DNA of 64,000 bases from a virus (taxonomy: Duplodnaviria; Caudoviricetes). How positions within the stretch are numbered: the stretch's first letter is position 1; each line of letters opens with the position of its first letter. The stretch lies in the IMG/VR virus record IMGVR_UViG_3300025450_001231, one strand, 5' to 3'. Shown here one piece after another: positions 30,750-34,085 of the stretch. A model generated the notes under the pieces. That model saw only the letters and a program-made list of their open reading frames with translations. It was not told where the DNA came from and made no database searches. The position numbers and the translations under genes were made by a program.

Positions 30750-32516
30750 ATGAAAAAAACACTACACTTCTTATCGGGAATCCCCCGCAGCGGATCTACG
30801 GTTTTGGCCGCTATATTAAACCAAAATCCTGCTACTCATGTGTCGACTACGTCTGGGCTAGTTCATGCACTTGACGGTTTAGCAAATACTTGGTTCAGTC
30901 AAGGATTGCTTAACGAAAATGACCCTAACCGAACAAAACTAGCAGAAACAATGCGTGGAATGATCGATGCATTCTACGAAGATACTGATAAAAAAATAGT
31001 AATTGACAAAGGCAGAGGTTGGCCTATACCTGTTATTATGCAGGCGATGACACAGGTCTTAGGGGCCAAACCTAAAATTATTGCCACAGTTCGTCCAGTT
31101 CCTGATTGTATGGCTAGTTTTGTTAGAGTCGCAAAACCCAAAGACCTTGATATGTTTATGTATGAAGGCCAATTAGCTGATCATCTAAGAGCAGCCTACA
31201 TCAGTTTACAAACAGGGTATGAAGCAATGCCCGAATGTTTTTTATTTGTAGAATACGACAAATTAATTGCCGATCCTAAAAAAGAACTGCAACGAATACA
31301 TAAGTTTTTAGGACTTAAACCATTCAAATACAATTTTAGTAATATTGATGGATCCACTGTAAAAGAAGACGACGAAAATCTACACGGTTACGAAGGTATG
31401 CACGATATTAAACCAGCGCTAGCACGTCAACATACCGACGACCCAAAAGTAGTATTAAGTTACCATTACAATCAATTTTGCCAGCCAGAATTTTGGAGTG
31501 ACGGTAAAAGAACTACTCCGACCTTAGATGATCTAGACCTTCAAGTAGCTGCAGGAAAAATCGGAGATTTTGCCGAAGGATGGCGATTAGCACAAAAATT
31601 AGAAAAAGAAAGACCTGGCGATCATAGAGCTGCGTACAACAAAAGTTGGTATCTGCTTAGACAAGGGAAAATACTCGAAGGCTATACTGTCATGAATCGA
31701 GGACGTTTTTGTGGTATTATTGGAGATAGACTTCCAGACACACCTGCACCAGAATGGGATGGAAAATCTAAAGGTACAATATTATTGTACTGTGATCATG
31801 GATTAGGCGACCAAATACATCAAGTTAGGTATGCAAAAGACTTAGCTGCACGTGGCAATAAAGTTGTTGTATGTTGCACTGGTATGTTAGCTAGTTTATT
31901 CAAAGATGTCGAAGGAGTTAGCGCAGTAGTACAACATGGTGCAGAATTTGGTGTTTATCACGATTTTTGGACATTTGCTATGGTAGCTCCGGGCCTATTA
32001 GGATTAGAACTAGCAGATTTGCGTGGTGATCCTTATATAACTAAGCCTATTACCATTAAAGGTCCTAAAAAACGTATCGGGCTAAGATGGCAAGGTCAAA
32101 GTAAATTTGAAGACGATCACAACAAAAAATTCCCTTACCAATTGATGTTTGATGCGGTAAAAAATGACGAATACGAGTTTATAAGCCTGCAAAGAGACGA
32201 AGGTGCAGATGCTTGTCCGACGTGGGTTAAGCAAGTTCCGCTAAATACATGGGAAGATACTAGAGTCGCTGCCGCAAGCTGCGACCTAGTTATTAGTTCT
32301 TGCACATCAGTCAGCCATTTGAGTGCGGCTATGGGCATAGAAACATGGGTTGTGATACCCGTAATGGGGTATTACTTATATGCGTTAGAAGGTGAAAAAA
32401 ATCCATATTATGACTCAATGACGTTATTCCGTCAGGAAGTATTTGGGGATTGGACAGCACCGTTTAACAATATTAAACAAAGATTGAAACAGACTAAATT
32501 AAGGAGAGTCGCATGA
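30750..32516 (+). CDS. Sulfotransferase-TPR-glycosyltransferase (GT9-like) fusion
   Basis: PAPS-binding SGIPRSGST and TVRPVPDCMASF in the N-terminal domain; helical TPR-like middle (HRAAYNKSWYLL); DHGLGDQIHQVRY and CDLVISSCTSVSHLSAAMG typical of TPR-GT9-like proteins. Confidence 0.8.
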   Translation: MKKTLHFLSGIPRSGSTVLAAILNQNPATHVSTTSGLVHALDGLANTWFSQGLLNENDPNRTKLAETMRGMIDAFYEDTDKKIVIDKGRGWPIPVIMQAMTQVLGAKPKIIATVRPVPDCMASFVRVAKPKDLDMFMYEGQLADHLRAAYISLQTGYEAMPECFLFVEYDKLIADPKKELQRIHKFLGLKPFKYNFSNIDGSTVKEDDENLHGYEGMHDIKPALARQHTDDPKVVLSYHYNQFCQPEFWSDGKRTTPTLDDLDLQVAAGKIGDFAEGWRLAQKLEKERPGDHRAAYNKSWYLLRQGKILEGYTVMNRGRFCGIIGDRLPDTPAPEWDGKSKGTILLYCDHGLGDQIHQVRYAKDLAARGNKVVVCCTGMLASLFKDVEGVSAVVQHGAEFGVYHDFWTFAMVAPGLLGLELADLRGDPYITKPITIKGPKKRIGLRWQGQSKFEDDHNKKFPYQLMFDAVKNDEYEFISLQRDEGADACPTWVKQVPLNTWEDTRVAAASCDLVISSCTSVSHLSAAMGIETWVVIPVMGYYLYALEGEKNPYYDSMTLFRQEVFGDWTAPFNNIKQRLKQTKLRRVA

Positions 32517-32908
32517 GCACACATTATGTAAGAGTAGTTGATGGTAACGTAACTGATGTATGGGATACACCCCCAGCAGAGGGTGTTGGTAACAACGGTT
32601 GGAGAAACGCAGTAGAAGTCAGACCAGACATTATTCCAAATCGTCAAGGTTATACTGCACACACATTTGATTTGACAACAGATCCTGTACAAATCGTTTG
32701 GGGAACATTTGATATTTCTGTCGATGATCGCAAATCATCAATGGTTACCCAAGCAAAATTTGCAGTTCAACAGGCAATTCGTGAAAGCGCATTGAATCCA
32801 GAATCATTTGATCCATCTACAATTACTTCTGCACAAGCAACAATGACTGCTAGAATCGCAGCTATTAATGCTTGTAATACACACGACGAATTGGATGCAT
32901 TGAATTGA
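32513..32908 (+). CDS. Hypothetical protein, resembles tail-fibre assembly chaperones
   Basis: Small acidic protein (YVRVVDGNVT start, RIAAINACNTHDEL end); ATGA/TTGA overlaps with both neighbours. Confidence 0.5.
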   Translation: MSTHYVRVVDGNVTDVWDTPPAEGVGNNGWRNAVEVRPDIIPNRQGYTAHTFDLTTDPVQIVWGTFDISVDDRKSSMVTQAKFAVQQAIRESALNPESFDPSTITSAQATMTARIAAINACNTHDELDALN

Positions 32909-33471
32909 AGTTAAACCTGGGCTGTGGGTACAATAAGCTTGAAGGGTATGTTAACGTTGATAACGACCCTTCTTGCAATCCAGATAAAATTGTAGATCTA
33001 GAAAAAAAACTGCCCTGGAAAGACAATTCTGTGGACGAGATAATTATAAGCCATGTCTTAGAACATCTCGGTCAAGATACTAAAAGTTATTTTGCCATAT
33101 GGAAAGAATTCTATAGAATTCTTAAAGACGGTGCAGAAATTTATATTACTGTACCTCATCATAGGCACGATAATTTTGTTCACGACCCTACACACGTAAG
33201 GGCAATTACTCCGGTTGGTATTGATATGTTTAATCAACGTAAAAATACCGAAACTATTGAAAACCACGGGCAAGAAACTACCTTAGGTCTACAATTAGGA
33301 ATAGATATAGCAGTGATCGACATAAAGCATGATCCCACACCTTGGTTCGAAGCATACGCAAAAACTTTGCCCCCAGAAGCTGTTAATATAGAATTTAACA
33401 AATATAACAACACTTGCTACCAAGTACACATTAAAGCAAAAGCCTACAAACCTGCTCGGAGTTTGCGTTGA
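32905..33471 (+). CDS. Class I SAM-dependent methyltransferase
   Basis: KLNLGCG motif I, LPWKDNSVDEIIISHVLEH, FYRILKDGAEIYITVP; TTG start. Confidence 0.85.
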   Translation: MKLNLGCGYNKLEGYVNVDNDPSCNPDKIVDLEKKLPWKDNSVDEIIISHVLEHLGQDTKSYFAIWKEFYRILKDGAEIYITVPHHRHDNFVHDPTHVRAITPVGIDMFNQRKNTETIENHGQETTLGLQLGIDIAVIDIKHDPTPWFEAYAKTLPPEAVNIEFNKYNNTCYQVHIKAKAYKPARSLR

Positions 33472-34085
33472 AGATATTGGTAATGGGTTTGCCAGGATCT
33501 GGTAAAACTACATTTAGTCAAGAACTAGTTAAACGACTAATGCTTACCCATTCAGTAAGTTGGTTCAATGCTGACACAGTAAGAGAACAATTTAACGATT
33601 GGGATTTTTCTCCTGAAGGTCGCGAACGCCAAATGCAACGTATGATTGACCTGAGCAACAACTCGGGTAGTGATTTTTCAGTTTGCGATTTTGTTTGCCC
33701 TACTGAAAAACTACGTGATGCATTTAATGCTGATATAGTTATTTGGATGGATACCATTGAAGAAGGTAGATTTGCAGATACCAATAAATTATTCGAAAAC
33801 CCAACTTCAGTAACATATCATATTACAGATTGGTCAGACTCTTGGGTAAAGTCCATAGCTAGTGATTTAACGCAAGCACCCAGTGACTCCAATGTTAGAA
33901 GTTTAGTAAAAGCAATATCTTGGCGTATCATTGGCACAGTGGAAACATTTTTAATAAGTTTATTAATGACTGGCAAATTGACTACTGCTGGTAGTATTGC
34001 TGGCATACAAGCAGTATTATCAACATTATTATATTGGTACCACGAAAGAGTTTGGAACAAACTTAAATGGGGCAAGACTCGATAG
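33468..34085 (+). CDS. Adenylylsulfate (APS) kinase-like P-loop kinase fused to a DUF2061-like membrane domain
   Basis: GLPGSGKTT P-loop, NADTVR, DWDFSPEGRERQ; C-terminal RSLVKAISWRIIGT...LYWYHERVWNKLKWG. Confidence 0.75.
   Translation: MKILVMGLPGSGKTTFSQELVKRLMLTHSVSWFNADTVREQFNDWDFSPEGRERQMQRMIDLSNNSGSDFSVCDFVCPTEKLRDAFNADIVIWMDTIEEGRFADTNKLFENPTSVTYHITDWSDSWVKSIASDLTQAPSDSNVRSLVKAISWRIIGTVETFLISLLMTGKLTTAGSIAGIQAVLSTLLYWYHERVWNKLKWGKTR

What the first reader, a model, noticed from the sequence alone, without database searches (positions are those of the whole stretch)
30750..34085. Self-contained sulfation module: PAPS-type sulfotransferase fused to a glycosyltransferase plus a membrane-tethered APS-kinase-like enzyme
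The PAPS consumer (SGIPRSGST) and probable PAPS producer lie three genes apart. Fusion of sulfotransferase, TPR and GT suggests sugar transfer and sulfation on one TPR-recognised protein substrate. The kinase carries a DUF2061-like hydrophobic hairpin that could localise it to the membrane. No ATP sulfurylase is in the window, so APS would come from the host. The kinase motifs are divergent (GLPGSGKTT, DFVCPT), so its substrate is inferred.
Basis: partly seen in the sequence, partly recalled or inferred. Interest (0 to 1): 0.7.

Follow-up and report, generated by a model that had tools for sequence, protein, structure and literature searches.

The report
Phage fibre-linked sulfation operon
An uncultured freshwater jumbo phage carries, right behind its giant tail-fibre gene, a four-gene operon that joins a sulfate-adding enzyme fused to a sugar-adding enzyme with a stripped-down kinase that most likely makes the sulfate donor PAPS, so the phage probably sulfates and glycosylates something, most plausibly its own fibres, which has not been described for phages.

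Summary
Bases 30750-34085 are one translationally coupled four-gene block. Gene 1 (588 aa) is a PAPS-type sulfotransferase (tyrosylprotein-sulfotransferase-like fold, Z 18-19), two TPR hairpins and a GT9-like glycosyltransferase domain (Z 14-16). Gene 2 is a 131-aa ORF, gene 3 a small SAM methyltransferase. Gene 4 (205 aa) is an APS-kinase-like P-loop kinase fused to a DUF2061 helical hairpin.

The kinase is a divergent form with a short lid. Sequence profile and fold both place it nearest APS kinases. Its family is tied to sulfotransferases: 15 of 50 kinase-bearing viral records carry one, against 0 of 50 controls, mostly within a few kb, across 11 kinase lineages. These include a SAR86 sulfotransferase-kinase-nucleotidyltransferase operon.

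The fusion is a conserved protein that follows RCC1/FN3 fibre genes in 70 of 72 related loci. The kinase lies downstream in 46 of 64.

Not supported: 'self-contained'. The window has no ATP sulfurylase, and it lacks the mini HxGH nucleotidyltransferase that accompanies the kinase in 118 of 160 loci.

Uncertain: membrane tethering (hydrophobicity is borderline) and the acceptor.

Earlier notes of this scan report similar phage sulfation kits on other DNA.

Verdict: a real module, a new variant of known PAPS/sulfotransferase cassettes. Biochemistry untested.

The parts
19350..30689 (+). 3779-aa RCC1/FN3 fibre protein directly upstream; candidate acceptor (context, not part of the enzyme set)
   Evidence: ORF. 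A fibre-like ORF lies upstream of the fusion in 70 of 72 related loci, immediately adjacent in nearly all of them. L032 shows the same order with two small RCC1 fibre genes.
30712..30743 (+). 14-bp stem-loop just upstream of the operon's first start codon
   Evidence: Listed by the terminator-like scan; it has no clear T-tract. Its function was not tested.
30750..31523 (+). Sulfotransferase domain (residues 1-258) of the 588-aa fusion
   Evidence: Pfam Sulfotransfer_3 E 3e-15. Best folds are TPST1, TPST2 and tick TPST: Z 18.4-19.0, rmsd 3.4-3.8, 235-243 residues aligned; Foldseek E about 2e-7. The 5'-PSB loop PRSGST and the 3'-PB motif VRP...S are intact and conserved in most relatives.
31524..31721 (+). 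Two TPR-like helical hairpins (residues 259-324)
   Evidence: Fold matches to TPR proteins: Z 9-10, 63-67 residues aligned, rmsd about 2.5. Pfam TPR_16 reaches only E 0.15; 4 of 42 relatives pass TPR_16.
31767..32507 (+). GT9-like GT-B glycosyltransferase domain (residues about 340-586)
   Evidence: Fold matches: WaaC Z 16.1, WaaF 15.8, GT9 entry 3tov 15.5, TibC 14.3; 230-241 residues aligned, rmsd 3.2-3.4. G351, G353, D354, C518, T519 and H523 are invariant in 42 relatives. No Pfam family matches. The domain family has 27,207 representatives.
32513..32908 (+). 131-aa ORF of unknown function, possibly a fibre-assembly-chaperone-like protein
   Evidence: ATGA overlap with the fusion's stop, preceded by AAGGAG. 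A homologue follows the fusion in 64 of 64 related loci. No Pfam or PHROG match. Atlas look-alikes with names are tail assembly chaperone families, at scores of 0.88-0.89 only.
32905..33471 (+). 188-aa SAM-dependent methyltransferase
   Evidence: Pfam Methyltransf_11 E 2e-6. PHROG methyltransferase E 1e-9. TTGA overlap with the previous gene. Present in 17 of 64 related loci, so it is an optional slot.
33468..33872 (+). APS-kinase-like P-loop kinase domain (residues 1-135), short-lid form
   Evidence: Pfam APS_kinase 28.8 bits against a cut-off of 21.1. The 13 best PDB hits of the family profile are all APS kinases, best E 2.5e-6. Nearly all of the top 50 Foldseek matches are APS kinases, TM 0.55-0.70 normalised to the target. 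Invariant residues include NAD36xVR39, F47, R52 and CDFVCP. TTGA overlap with the methyltransferase stop.
33891..34061 (+). DUF2061 helical hairpin (residues 142-198) fused to the kinase
   Evidence: Pfam DUF2061 E 4e-18. The model shows two long helices, 142-168 and 171-198. Hydropathy is borderline, peak 1.46. In relatives it is a separate ORF of about 70 aa beside the kinase.
34107..34135 (+). Sigma-70-like promoter after the kinase stop, marking the 3' limit of the four-gene block
   Evidence: TTGACG-17-TATAAT, 11 of 12 matches and the best site in the region. This is a consensus match only.

Best explanation
Bases 30750-34085 form a translationally coupled four-gene operon. It is placed directly after the tail-fibre genes of an uncultured freshwater jumbo myovirus distantly related to Pseudomonas phage PA5oct.

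The last gene encodes a trimmed APS kinase. It most likely phosphorylates the 3'-OH of APS, supplied here by the host's sulfate-activation pathway, to give PAPS.

PAPS is then used by the sulfotransferase domain of the first gene. That gene's GT9-like domain adds a sugar from a nucleotide-sugar donor, and the small methyltransferase may add a methyl group.

The acceptor is most plausibly the adjacent RCC1/FN3 fibre proteins or a glycan built on them. The host envelope is the main alternative.

The DUF2061 hairpin is an accessory piece of the PAPS-supply module. It may anchor or oligomerise the kinase; its role is unknown.

Shown here: the gene structure, the domain folds, the intact PAPS-binding motifs, the APS-kinase-like fold and motifs, and the statistical and syntenic linkage.

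Inferred: the kinase's substrate, the source of APS, the acceptor and the role of DUF2061.
For: 1. Kinase identity.
- Pfam APS_kinase scores above its gathering cut-off.
- The 13 best PDB hits of the family profile are all APS kinases, and no NR kinase or NadR appears.
- APS kinases from fungi, humans, plants, archaea and bacteria dominate the fold search.
- In the HMMER alignments the family's invariant D36, R39, F47, R52 and F75-x-C77-P78 fall on the second Asp and the Arg of DGDxxR, the Phe and Arg of GFSxxxR, and FISP. From the APS-kinase literature as I recall it, these are the catalytic and APS-binding positions.

2. Linkage, selecting on the kinase.
- Sulfotransfer_3 is in 15 of 50 kinase-bearing viral records, against 0 of 50 records selected by a sugar dehydratase (Fisher p 1.8e-5).
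- 17 of the 29 sulfotransferases found in kinase loci lie within 34 bp of the kinase.
- The pairings fall in 11 kinase clusters and 12 sulfotransferase clusters with different arrangements.

3. Linkage, selecting on the fusion.
- The kinase lies within 4.5 kb downstream in 46 of 64 loci.
- The unrelated 41-kb phage L032 repeats the order fibre, fusion, small ORF, kinase.

4. SAR86.
- Three genomes have 2-3 strong sulfotransferases but no Sat, no CysD/CysH and no other APS-kinase hit.
- 12 SAR86-type loci have a sulfotransferase-kinase-nucleotidyltransferase operon.

5. In the window, the four genes are coupled by overlapping stop and start codons.

6. The sulfotransferase domain has intact 5'-PSB and 3'-PB motifs and a confident fold.
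Against: - The kinase fails every NCBIfam APS-kinase cut-off; for example TIGR00455 scores 20.7 against 138.7.
- Pfam matches only the first 92 of 152 profile positions.
- The first Asp of DGD is Asn, the Ser of FISP is Cys, and the lid is much shorter. Between the aligned anchor points, the query has 25 residues where the fungal enzyme 3cr7 has 58 (secondary structure).
- Its usual partner gene is, by sequence, nearest to NMN adenylyltransferases and not to ATP sulfurylase.
- Pelagibacter has a canonical CysC as well as this kinase.
- Two near-complete jumbo phages and the cultured phages Salvo and phiRSL1 carry the kinase but no recognisable sulfotransferase.
- No APS source is encoded in the window.
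- No biochemical data exist for any member; a literature search on DUF2061 gave nothing functional.
Confidence: 0.6

Rival explanations
1. The kinase is not an APS kinase. Together with the HxGH nucleotidyltransferase that usually accompanies it, it forms another two-step nucleotide pathway. One example is nicotinamide riboside kinase plus NMN adenylyltransferase for NAD salvage; another is a CoA-synthase-like adenylyltransferase plus 3'-kinase. On this reading, its place next to the sulfotransferase here is incidental.
For: - The partner's nearest solved relatives are archaeal NMN adenylyltransferases (1f9a, E 6e-6).
- The pair is fused in phrog_10255, which carries only the label 'kinase'.
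- Cultured phages with the fused pair lack Sulfotransfer_3.
- Two near-complete jumbo phages lack any recognised sulfotransferase.
- Pelagibacter keeps a canonical CysC beside this kinase.
- The lid is truncated and the NCBIfam cut-offs are not met.
Against: - Neither the profile search nor the fold search returns an NR kinase, NadR or dephospho-CoA kinase ahead of APS kinases.
- The APS-binding positions are invariant.
- Sulfotransferases are the most frequent family-specific neighbour in viruses and are often directly adjacent.
- 15 of 50 against 0 of 50 in the control.
- SAR86 sulfotransferases would have no PAPS source otherwise.
- In this window the partner is absent while the sulfotransferase is translationally coupled.
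Confidence: 0.15
2. The kinase does make PAPS, but as an auxiliary metabolic gene that boosts the host's assimilatory sulfate reduction during infection, not to feed the phage sulfotransferase.
For: - Many kinase-bearing phage records show no sulfotransferase (35 of 50).
- Xylella phage Salvo has a cysteine dioxygenase gene a few kb from its kinase.
Against: - No PAPS reductase scores above the family cut-off in 50 kinase-bearing viral records.
- Here the kinase is the last gene of an operon that starts with a sulfotransferase.
- Synteny with the fusion holds in 46 of 64 loci.
- Most of the records without a sulfotransferase are small fragments.
Confidence: 0.08
3. The enzymes work as proposed, but the acceptor is the host cell envelope (LPS core, O-antigen or capsule), for example for superinfection exclusion. 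It is not the virion fibre.
For: - The closest folds of the glycosyltransferase domain are the LPS heptosyltransferases WaaC and WaaF.
- DUF2061 is annotated as a membrane domain.
- A sugar-nucleotide and glycosyltransferase cluster follows (GT4, acyltransferase, DegT, Gmd, GT10-like), behind a sigma-70-like promoter.
Against: - The fusion sits after the fibre gene in 70 of 72 loci, immediately adjacent in nearly all, and is followed in 64 of 64 loci by a small ORF with weak tail-chaperone resemblance.
- The best sulfotransferase folds are protein tyrosine sulfotransferases.
- TibC, a protein heptosyltransferase, is also among the GT9 matches.
- The same order occurs in a small phage that has no sugar cluster in the fetched flank (L032).
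Confidence: 0.2

Closest known systems
Bacterial sulfation cassettes that pair PAPS synthesis with a dedicated sulfotransferase: rhizobial NodP/NodQ with NodH or NoeE, and Xanthomonas RaxP/RaxQ with the tyrosine sulfotransferase RaxST (from general knowledge)
   Same: A PAPS-supplying kinase and a PAPS-using sulfotransferase are encoded together to decorate one specific extracellular product. The neighbouring tailoring genes (methyltransferase, acetyltransferase, GDP-mannose dehydratase, fucosyltransferase-like enzyme) recall Nod-factor decoration. NCBIfam gives a weak NoeE hit on the PAPS loop.
   Different: - No ATP sulfurylase is present.
- The kinase is a trimmed form of about 135 aa fused to DUF2061, not a canonical CysC/NodQ domain.
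- The sulfotransferase is fused to TPR and a GT9-like domain.
- The system is phage-encoded and attached to fibre genes.
Canonical APS kinases (CysC; the APS-kinase domain of human PAPSS1/2; P. chrysogenum APS kinase, PDB 1m7g, 2ofx, 3cr7; archaeal 2yvu, 8a8h)
   Same: Same fold and the best sequence-profile match. The P-loop is kept, as are the second Asp and the Arg of DGDxxR, the Phe/Arg pair of GFSxxxR, and an FISP-like FVCP motif.
   Different: - NAD replaces DGD and Cys replaces the Ser of FISP.
- The lid is about 20-30 residues shorter.
- Scores are far below the NCBIfam equivalog cut-offs.
- There is a C-terminal DUF2061 hairpin.
- The family's usual partner is a 120-135-aa HxGH nucleotidyltransferase, not Sat or CysDN.
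Tyrosylprotein sulfotransferases (human TPST1/2, tick TPST; PDB 5wri, 3ap3, 8w5z)
   Same: Best structural match of residues 1-258 (Z 18.4-19.0). Both have the PRSG(S/T)T 5'-PSB loop with Arg instead of Lys.
   Different: - Only 12-19% identity.
- In the HMMER alignment, the position of the TPST catalytic Glu (as I recall it) is not a Glu here.
- Carbohydrate and polyketide sulfotransferases follow closely (Z 13-16).
- No acceptor is known.
GT9 heptosyltransferases (WaaC, WaaF) and the protein heptosyltransferase TibC; more loosely the TPR-plus-GT-B protein glycosyltransferases OGT and SPINDLY
   Same: GT-B fold with Z 14-16 over 230-241 residues. An invariant G-x-G-D lies at the N-terminal loop where GT9 enzymes have their catalytic Asp (residue role from memory). 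TPR repeats precede a GT-B domain, as in OGT and SPY.
   Different: - No Pfam Glyco_transf_9 or GT41 match at E up to 10.
- The domain is about 245 aa against 320-380.
- S-C-T replaces the D-T-G of the GT9 C-terminal motif.
- It belongs to a very large uncharacterised family, often repeated 3-6 times in giant proteins.
Phage sulfation kits noted earlier in this scan on other DNA (e1-5364011, e1-5339417, e1-5324176)
   Same: The same trimmed kinase, DUF2061, sulfotransferases and, in one case, a tyrosine-sulfotransferase-like enzyme with a GT9-type glycosyltransferase behind fibre genes.
   Different: Those loci carry the mini nucleotidyltransferase, proposed there as a new ATP sulfurylase. This window does not, and here the kinase is fused to DUF2061. 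These are unchecked AI notes and I used them only as leads.

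Membership tests
APS kinase (CysC, EC 2.7.1.25; Pfam PF01583) | Walker A P-loop GxxGxGK(S/T) | tested here: met
   GLPGSGKTT at residues 7-15, invariant in 41 relatives.
APS kinase (CysC, EC 2.7.1.25; Pfam PF01583) | Score above the curated family thresholds | tested here: inconclusive
   Pfam: 28.8 bits against a cut-off of 21.1, met, but only profile positions 5-92 of 152 are matched. NCBIfam TIGR00455: 20.7 against 138.7, and all other APS-kinase models are below cut-off.
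APS kinase (CysC, EC 2.7.1.25; Pfam PF01583) | DGDxxR motif (Mg2+ and catalytic Asp, APS-binding Arg) | tested here: inconclusive
   Aligned as N34-A35-D36-x-x-R39. The second Asp and the Arg are invariant; the first Asp is Asn. Residue roles are from the literature as I recall it.
APS kinase (CysC, EC 2.7.1.25; Pfam PF01583) | APS-binding GFSxxDRxxN segment and (S/F)ISP motif | tested here: inconclusive
   F47, R52 and R58 are invariant. Q55 stands where many APS kinases have Asn (His in 2yvu). FVCP replaces FISP, with Ser changed to Cys.
APS kinase (CysC, EC 2.7.1.25; Pfam PF01583) | Mobile lid segment between strand 4 and the (Y/F)ExP motif | tested here: not met
   The query has 25 residues between its positions 86 and 111, where 3cr7 has 58 (chain positions 92 to 150). 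The model shows only one short helix, 103-106, between strands 90-94 and 117-119. I therefore file it as APS-kinase-like, not as a canonical member.
APS kinase (CysC, EC 2.7.1.25; Pfam PF01583) | Overall fold | tested here: met
   Nearly all of the top 50 Foldseek PDB matches are APS kinases; E about 1e-6, TM 0.55-0.70 normalised to the target.
APS kinase (CysC, EC 2.7.1.25; Pfam PF01583) | Catalyses APS + ATP -> PAPS + ADP | not testable with these tools
   Only indirect support: genomic linkage with sulfotransferases and the SAR86 gene inventory.
PAPS-dependent sulfotransferases (Pfam Sulfotransfer_3 / Sulfotransfer_1) | Family profile match above cut-off | tested here: met
   PF13469: 57.5 bits against 27. 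PF00685: 39.9 bits against 22.
PAPS-dependent sulfotransferases (Pfam Sulfotransfer_3 / Sulfotransfer_1) | 5'-phosphosulfate-binding loop P(K/R)xG(S/T)T and 3'-phosphate-binding R...S motif | tested here: met
   P12-R-S-G-S-T17 and V114-R115-P...S123 are present and conserved in most of 24 relatives.
PAPS-dependent sulfotransferases (Pfam Sulfotransfer_3 / Sulfotransfer_1) | Sulfotransferase fold | tested here: met
   Z 18-19 to TPSTs and 13-16 to many other sulfotransferases; pLDDT 91.7.
PAPS-dependent sulfotransferases (Pfam Sulfotransfer_3 / Sulfotransfer_1) | Identified catalytic base | tested here: inconclusive
   In the HMMER alignment, the position of the TPST catalytic Glu is not Glu in this protein. 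I had no residue-level structural superposition.
Tyrosylprotein sulfotransferase (protein acceptor) | Sulfates tyrosine in a peptide | not testable with these tools
   Best fold match only. The margin over non-protein sulfotransferases is 2-5 Z units.
Glycosyltransferase family 9 (heptosyltransferases) | GT-B fold closest to GT9 structures | tested here: met
   WaaC Z 16.1, WaaF 15.8, 3tov 15.5, TibC 14.3.
Glycosyltransferase family 9 (heptosyltransferases) | Match to Pfam Glyco_transf_9 | tested here: not met
   No Pfam family other than a weak TPR_16 at E up to 10 on residues 255-588. No PDB sequence match. I therefore call it GT9-like by fold, not a GT9 member.
Glycosyltransferase family 9 (heptosyltransferases) | N-terminal G-D catalytic loop and C-terminal D-T-G-x-x-H-L motif | tested here: inconclusive
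   G351-x-G353-D354 and H523 are invariant. S517-C518-T519 stands where GT9 has D-T-G. The correspondence is by motif inspection and memory of WaaC, not by residue-level superposition.
DUF2061 (Pfam PF09834) | Profile match over the full domain | tested here: met
   E 4e-18, 66 bits against 23.1, profile positions 1-52 of 52.
DUF2061 (Pfam PF09834) | Integral membrane hairpin, as the family is described | tested here: inconclusive
   The model has two helices of 27-28 residues. The peak Kyte-Doolittle 19-residue mean is 1.46, below 1.6. Acidic and basic residues inside the helices are conserved.
Complete PAPS-synthesis module (ATP sulfurylase + APS kinase) | An ATP sulfurylase (Sat, CysDN or the candidate mini HxGH nucleotidyltransferase) encoded with the kinase | tested here: not met
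   None found in the 64-kb window. The rest of the genome could not be searched.

The most novel reading that the evidence does not exclude
The phage sulfates, and also glycosylates and perhaps methylates, its own giant RCC1/FN3 fibres with a single three-domain enzyme fed by a phage-made PAPS pool. The resulting polyanionic, sulfated virion surface would be a post-translational modification not known for any bacteriophage. The trimmed kinase, DUF2061 and, in relatives, the mini HxGH nucleotidyltransferase would together be a previously unrecognised minimal PAPS synthase. That same system would also explain how SAR86, and possibly SAR11, make PAPS without Sat or CysDN.
Probability: 0.3. Interest if true: 0.8.

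Novelty: new variant of a known kind. Interest (0 to 1): 0.6.

Why it matters
Sulfation of phage particles or of phage-made glycans has not been described. Known phage virion modifications are glycosylations. A conserved, abundant enzyme that joins a tyrosine-sulfotransferase-like domain to a glycosyltransferase, and is always encoded next to fibre genes, would point to a new way of tuning adsorption, host range or resistance to grazing and enzymes in freshwater and marine phages.

The kinase family is also of wider interest. It is the only APS-kinase-like gene in the SAR86 genomes examined, which nevertheless keep sulfotransferases. Showing its activity would therefore help to resolve how these abundant bacteria activate sulfate. 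It would also give DUF2061 a functional context.

Tried and rejected
- A nucleotide search of the region against 50,697 phage records found no match. The phage is known only from metagenomes.
- No whole genome is held for the window, so I could not test whether an ATP sulfurylase or mini nucleotidyltransferase lies elsewhere in the genome of at least 264 kb.
- A literature search for DUF2061 and for phage sulfotransferase or APS kinase gave nothing functional.
- Pfam and PDB sequence searches of the fusion's C-terminal half were empty. Only the fold search resolved it.
- Canonical ATP sulfurylase (PF01747) was absent from 50 of 50 kinase-bearing viral records. PAPS reductase/CysD (PF01507) did not score above cut-off in any of them.
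- A profile of the mini nucleotidyltransferase and an HxGH motif scan found nothing meaningful in the window. The only HxGH is inside the GT4 gene.
- I tried to show homology between the window's 131-aa ORF and the 134-aa ORF at the same position in L032. BLASTP gave E 0.053, which is not significant.
- I considered a DNA-hypermodification kinase reading (5-hmdU DNA kinase type), because relatives sit near thymidylate-synthase-like, radical-SAM and PLP enzymes. I dropped it: profile and fold point to APS kinase, and here the gene is coupled to a sulfotransferase.
- I sent no complex prediction, because the report does not claim a specific protein-protein contact.

Full report
**What is in the sequence**

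The finding's coordinates delimit four genes on the + strand:
- 30750-32516, 588 aa
- 32513-32908, 131 aa
- 32905-33471, 188 aa
- 33468-34085, 205 aa

Successive genes overlap by ATGA, TTGA and TTGA. The scan found no convincing terminator between them. The best sigma-70-like site of the region, TTGACG-17-TATAAT at 34107-34135, comes only after the kinase stop. The block therefore reads as one translationally coupled operon.

The TTG start at 33468 gives the N-terminus MKILVMGLPG. All 40 aligned homologues have this beta-strand before the P-loop. The gene caller's ATG at 33483 (200-aa form) would remove it.

The window belongs to a large uncultured myovirus. It encodes a tail sheath, tube, gp15-like protein, large terminase and gp32-type SSB. 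The identical kinase occurs on freshwater metagenome contigs of up to 264 kb. The nearest cultured relatives are PA5oct-type Pseudomonas jumbo phages, with a terminase 55% identical.

**The 588-aa protein**

Pfam sees only the N-terminal sulfotransferase: Sulfotransfer_3 E 3e-15 and Sulfotransfer_1 E 4e-10. The C-terminal 334 residues match nothing in Pfam or in PDB sequences.

An AlphaFold model built on 42 relatives is confident, with pLDDT 91.7. An exhaustive structural comparison splits it into three parts:

| Residues | Closest folds | Scores |
|---|---|---|
| 1-258 | Tyrosylprotein sulfotransferases | Z 18.4-19.0, rmsd 3.4-3.8, 235-243 aligned |
| 1-258, next best | Polyketide and carbohydrate sulfotransferases | Z 13-16 |
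| 259-324 | TPR proteins | Z 9-10 over 63-67 residues |
| about 340-586 | GT9 GT-B enzymes | WaaC 16.1, WaaF 15.8, 3tov 15.5, TibC 14.3 |

Foldseek agrees.

The PAPS-binding 5'-PSB loop (P-R-S-G-S-T, residues 12-17) and the 3'-PB motif (V-R-P...S, residues 114-123) are intact. They are conserved in most of 24 relatives; a few relatives have a degenerate loop.

In the glycosyltransferase part, G351, G353, D354, C518, T519 and H523 are invariant. The G-x-G-D loop is where GT9 enzymes carry their catalytic Asp; that residue role is from my memory of WaaC.

The TPR part is short, and the glycosyltransferase is GT9-like by fold only.

The fusion is not a one-off:
- More than 100 clusters share 72-97% identity over the full length.
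- The same sulfotransferase-plus-C-domain architecture persists down to about 35-40% identity; 22 of 42 aligned members carry Sulfotransfer_3.
- The C-domain family is very large, with 27,207 representatives, and often forms 3-6 tandem copies in proteins of 1,400-3,100 aa.

**The kinase**

Pfam APS_kinase scores 28.8 bits against a cut-off of 21.1, but only on residues 3-86. DUF2061 covers residues 146-197 at E 4e-18. All NCBIfam APS-kinase models fall far below their cut-offs.

The 13 best PDB hits of the family profile are all APS kinases, the best being 2yvu at E 2.5e-6. No NR kinase, NadR or dephospho-CoA kinase appears. The AlphaFold model has pLDDT 82.7. It matches APS kinases from fungi, humans, plants, archaea and bacteria in nearly all of the top 50 Foldseek rows.

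In the HMMER alignments the family's invariant residues fall on the positions that, from the APS-kinase literature as I recall it, bind Mg2+ and APS:
- N34-A35-D36-x-x-R39 on D-G-D-x-x-R
- F47 and R52 on the G-F-S-x-x-x-R segment
- F75-V-C77-P78 on F-I-S-P

The differences are real. The first Asp is Asn and the Ser is Cys. The segment between strand 4 and the (Y/F)-E-x-P motif is much shorter, with 25 residues where 3cr7 has 58 between the aligned anchors. I therefore call it APS-kinase-like with a short lid, not a canonical CysC.

**Does the kinase serve sulfotransferases?**

I tested this by genomic association.

Selecting on the kinase:
- The kinase family has 4,924 hits in the large protein set. 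It has at least 582 viral and 485 cellular loci.
- Among 50 kinase-bearing viral records, most of them fragments, 15 carry Sulfotransfer_3.
- Among 50 viral records chosen instead for a GDP-mannose-dehydratase relative, and of similar or larger size, none does. Only 2 of those have any match to the kinase profile. Fisher p is 1.8e-5.
- In the fetched flanks, 17 of 29 sulfotransferases lie within 34 bp of the kinase.
- Unbiased clustering of neighbours within 6 kb made Sulfotransfer_3 the most frequent virus-only neighbour, at 15 loci. NDP-sugar epimerase followed at 14 and carbamoyltransferase at 12.
- The pairings fall into 11 kinase clusters at 70% identity (8 viral, 3 bacterial). They involve 12 sulfotransferase clusters in varied arrangements, so they are not one inherited block.

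Selecting on the fusion (80 viral loci, 67-97% identical):
- 70 of 72 loci with enough upstream sequence have an RCC1/FN3 fibre gene upstream, immediately adjacent in nearly all of them.
- 64 of 64 have the 131-aa ORF next.
- 46 of 64 have the kinase within 4.5 kb downstream.

A much smaller and unrelated phage contig (L032, 41 kb) repeats the order. It has two RCC1 fibre genes, the fusion (566 aa, 40% identical), a 134-aa ORF, and then the kinase.

**Evidence from cellular genomes**

The kinase domain is common in SAR86 and Pelagibacteraceae.

Three SAR86 genomes have this gene as their only APS_kinase hit. They have no Sat-type and no CysD/CysH-type gene, yet keep 2-3 strong Sulfotransfer_3 genes. 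Twelve SAR86-type loci have a sulfotransferase of 364-370 aa ending 13-34 bp upstream of the kinase. This supports PAPS formation.

Against it, a complete Pelagibacter genome has both a canonical APS kinase (92 bits), which lies near sulfotransferase hits, and this kinase elsewhere.

**The missing partner**

No canonical ATP sulfurylase occurs in 50 kinase-bearing viral records. None occurs in the window's annotated ORFs either.

Following a lead from earlier notes of this scan, I found a 120-135-aa HxGH nucleotidyltransferase with the motifs G-R-W-Q-P-W-H-x-G-H and I-S-A-T-x-I-R.
- It lies within 500 bp of the kinase in 118 of 160 loci and is fused to it in 19.
- PHROG 10255, labelled 'kinase', spans both halves.
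- Its nearest solved relatives by profile are archaeal NMN adenylyltransferases, E 6e-6. Whether it adenylylates sulfate, as the earlier notes propose, or NMN is open. This feeds rival 1.

The window has no such gene. Close relatives of the fusion lineage show every combination downstream of the 131-aa ORF: kinase alone, kinase fused to the nucleotidyltransferase, kinase with DUF2061 fused or as a separate ORF of about 70 aa, and each with or without the methyltransferase.

So the window's version is one variant of a modular kit. 'Self-contained' is not correct for it. APS must come from the host or from a gene outside the window.

**DUF2061**

The model gives two helices, 142-168 and 171-198. 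The highest 19-residue Kyte-Doolittle mean is 1.46, under the customary 1.6. Conserved Arg, Lys, Asp/Glu and a His-Glu-Arg triplet sit in or at the ends of the helices.

A membrane hairpin is possible. So is an amphipathic dimerisation element. The literature holds nothing functional. That it can be a separate small ORF between the kinase and the nucleotidyltransferase marks it as a third component of the PAPS-supply module.

**Counter-evidence kept in view**

- Two near-complete jumbo phages with the kinase show no sulfotransferase of Pfam families 1 to 4. A third has only Sulfotransfer_2, far from the kinase.
- The cultured phages Salvo and phiRSL1, which have the fused pair, lack Sulfotransfer_3.
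- In other large phages the kinase sits beside carbamoyltransferase, radical-SAM and sugar enzymes.

The link to sulfotransferases is strong but not obligate.

**Acceptor**

Nothing here identifies it.

For the fibre:
- The fixed position after fibre genes.
- The tyrosylprotein-sulfotransferase-like fold.
- The TPR repeats.
- TibC, a protein heptosyltransferase, among the GT9 matches.
- A weak tail-assembly-chaperone resemblance of the 131-aa ORF, at atlas scores of 0.88-0.89, which is a lead only.

For the host envelope or a free glycan:
- The top GT9 matches are LPS enzymes.
- The operon is followed by a sugar-nucleotide and glycosyltransferase cluster: GT4, a cupin-like ORF, a hexapeptide acyltransferase, a short DegT, GDP-mannose 4,6-dehydratase and a GT10-like ORF.

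**Verdict**

My estimates:

| Statement | Probability |
|---|---|
| The kinase makes PAPS | about 0.7-0.75 |
| The whole reading: phage-made PAPS feeds the fused sulfotransferase in a fibre-linked decoration operon | 0.6 |
| The fibre, or a glycan on it, is the acceptor, given that the module works | about 0.5-0.6 |

It is a new variant of known PAPS/sulfotransferase cassettes. It is unusual in its enzyme fusion, its trimmed kinase with DUF2061 and its phage fibre context. Similar kits were noted earlier in this scan on other DNA.

Noticed in passing
L020:9630-9995, L016:1851-2210, L101:10404-10778, L155:10402-10776 and 114 other loci; absent from the window: A 120-135-aa HxGH nucleotidyltransferase (GRWQPWHxGH ... 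ISATxIR) lies within 500 bp of this kinase in 118 of 160 loci and is fused to it in 19. Its nearest solved relatives by profile are archaeal NMN adenylyltransferases. Whether it is a new ATP sulfurylase is open.
   Followed up: partly
L106, L118, L120, L124, L129 and 7 other SAR86-type loci (about 8850-10800 in each): A three-gene operon of sulfotransferase (364-370 aa), kinase and mini nucleotidyltransferase. It occurs in SAR86-type genomes, and the SAR86 genomes examined lack Sat, CysD/CysH and canonical CysC. It is a candidate for the missing sulfate-activation route of this clade.
   Followed up: partly
proteins P0242-P0391: The TPR plus GT9-like module of the fusion belongs to a family of 27,207 representatives. 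Members often carry 3-6 tandem copies in giant proteins of 1,400-3,100 aa. No Pfam model covers it.
   Followed up: no
window 33468-33483: Public gene calls start the kinase at the ATG at 33483 (200 aa). The TTG at 33468 overlaps the upstream stop (TTGA) and restores the conserved beta-1 strand, so the public call is probably 5 residues short.
   Followed up: yes
L007 and L011 (kinase at 10001-10633): In other large phages the kinase::DUF2061 gene follows a carbamoyltransferase, a DUF6071 protein and three radical-SAM/SPASM enzymes. It lies near DegT, an epimerase, a thymidylate-synthase-like gene and DHFR. The product of this tailoring cluster is unknown, and Pfam detects no sulfotransferase there.
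   Followed up: no
window 36164-36856: The DegT/DnrJ-type aminotransferase ORF is only 230 aa, and Pfam matches it in two stretches to a 360-position profile. It may be a shortened or split form in the presumed GDP-perosamine-like route.
   Followed up: no
window 54302-54730 and 47029-47640: A TnsA-like endonuclease N-terminal domain ORF (E 1e-21) sits among the tail genes. A deoxynucleotide monophosphate kinase-like ORF lies between the head-tail adaptor and the sheath.
   Followed up: no
proteins P0253, P0257, P0297, P0343 (alignment A2): Some distant relatives of the fusion have a degenerate 5'-PSB loop (for example PNAGID, KYSGEQ, LADDIE). They may have lost sulfotransferase activity while keeping the GT9-like domain.
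   Followed up: no
L001 (Xylella phage Salvo, record 10970-11665 and 15167-15913): Salvo's fused kinase-nucleotidyltransferase ('kinase', gp32) lies a few kb from a gene annotated as cysteine dioxygenase. This second sulfur-metabolism gene is in a phage that has no Sulfotransfer_3.
   Followed up: no
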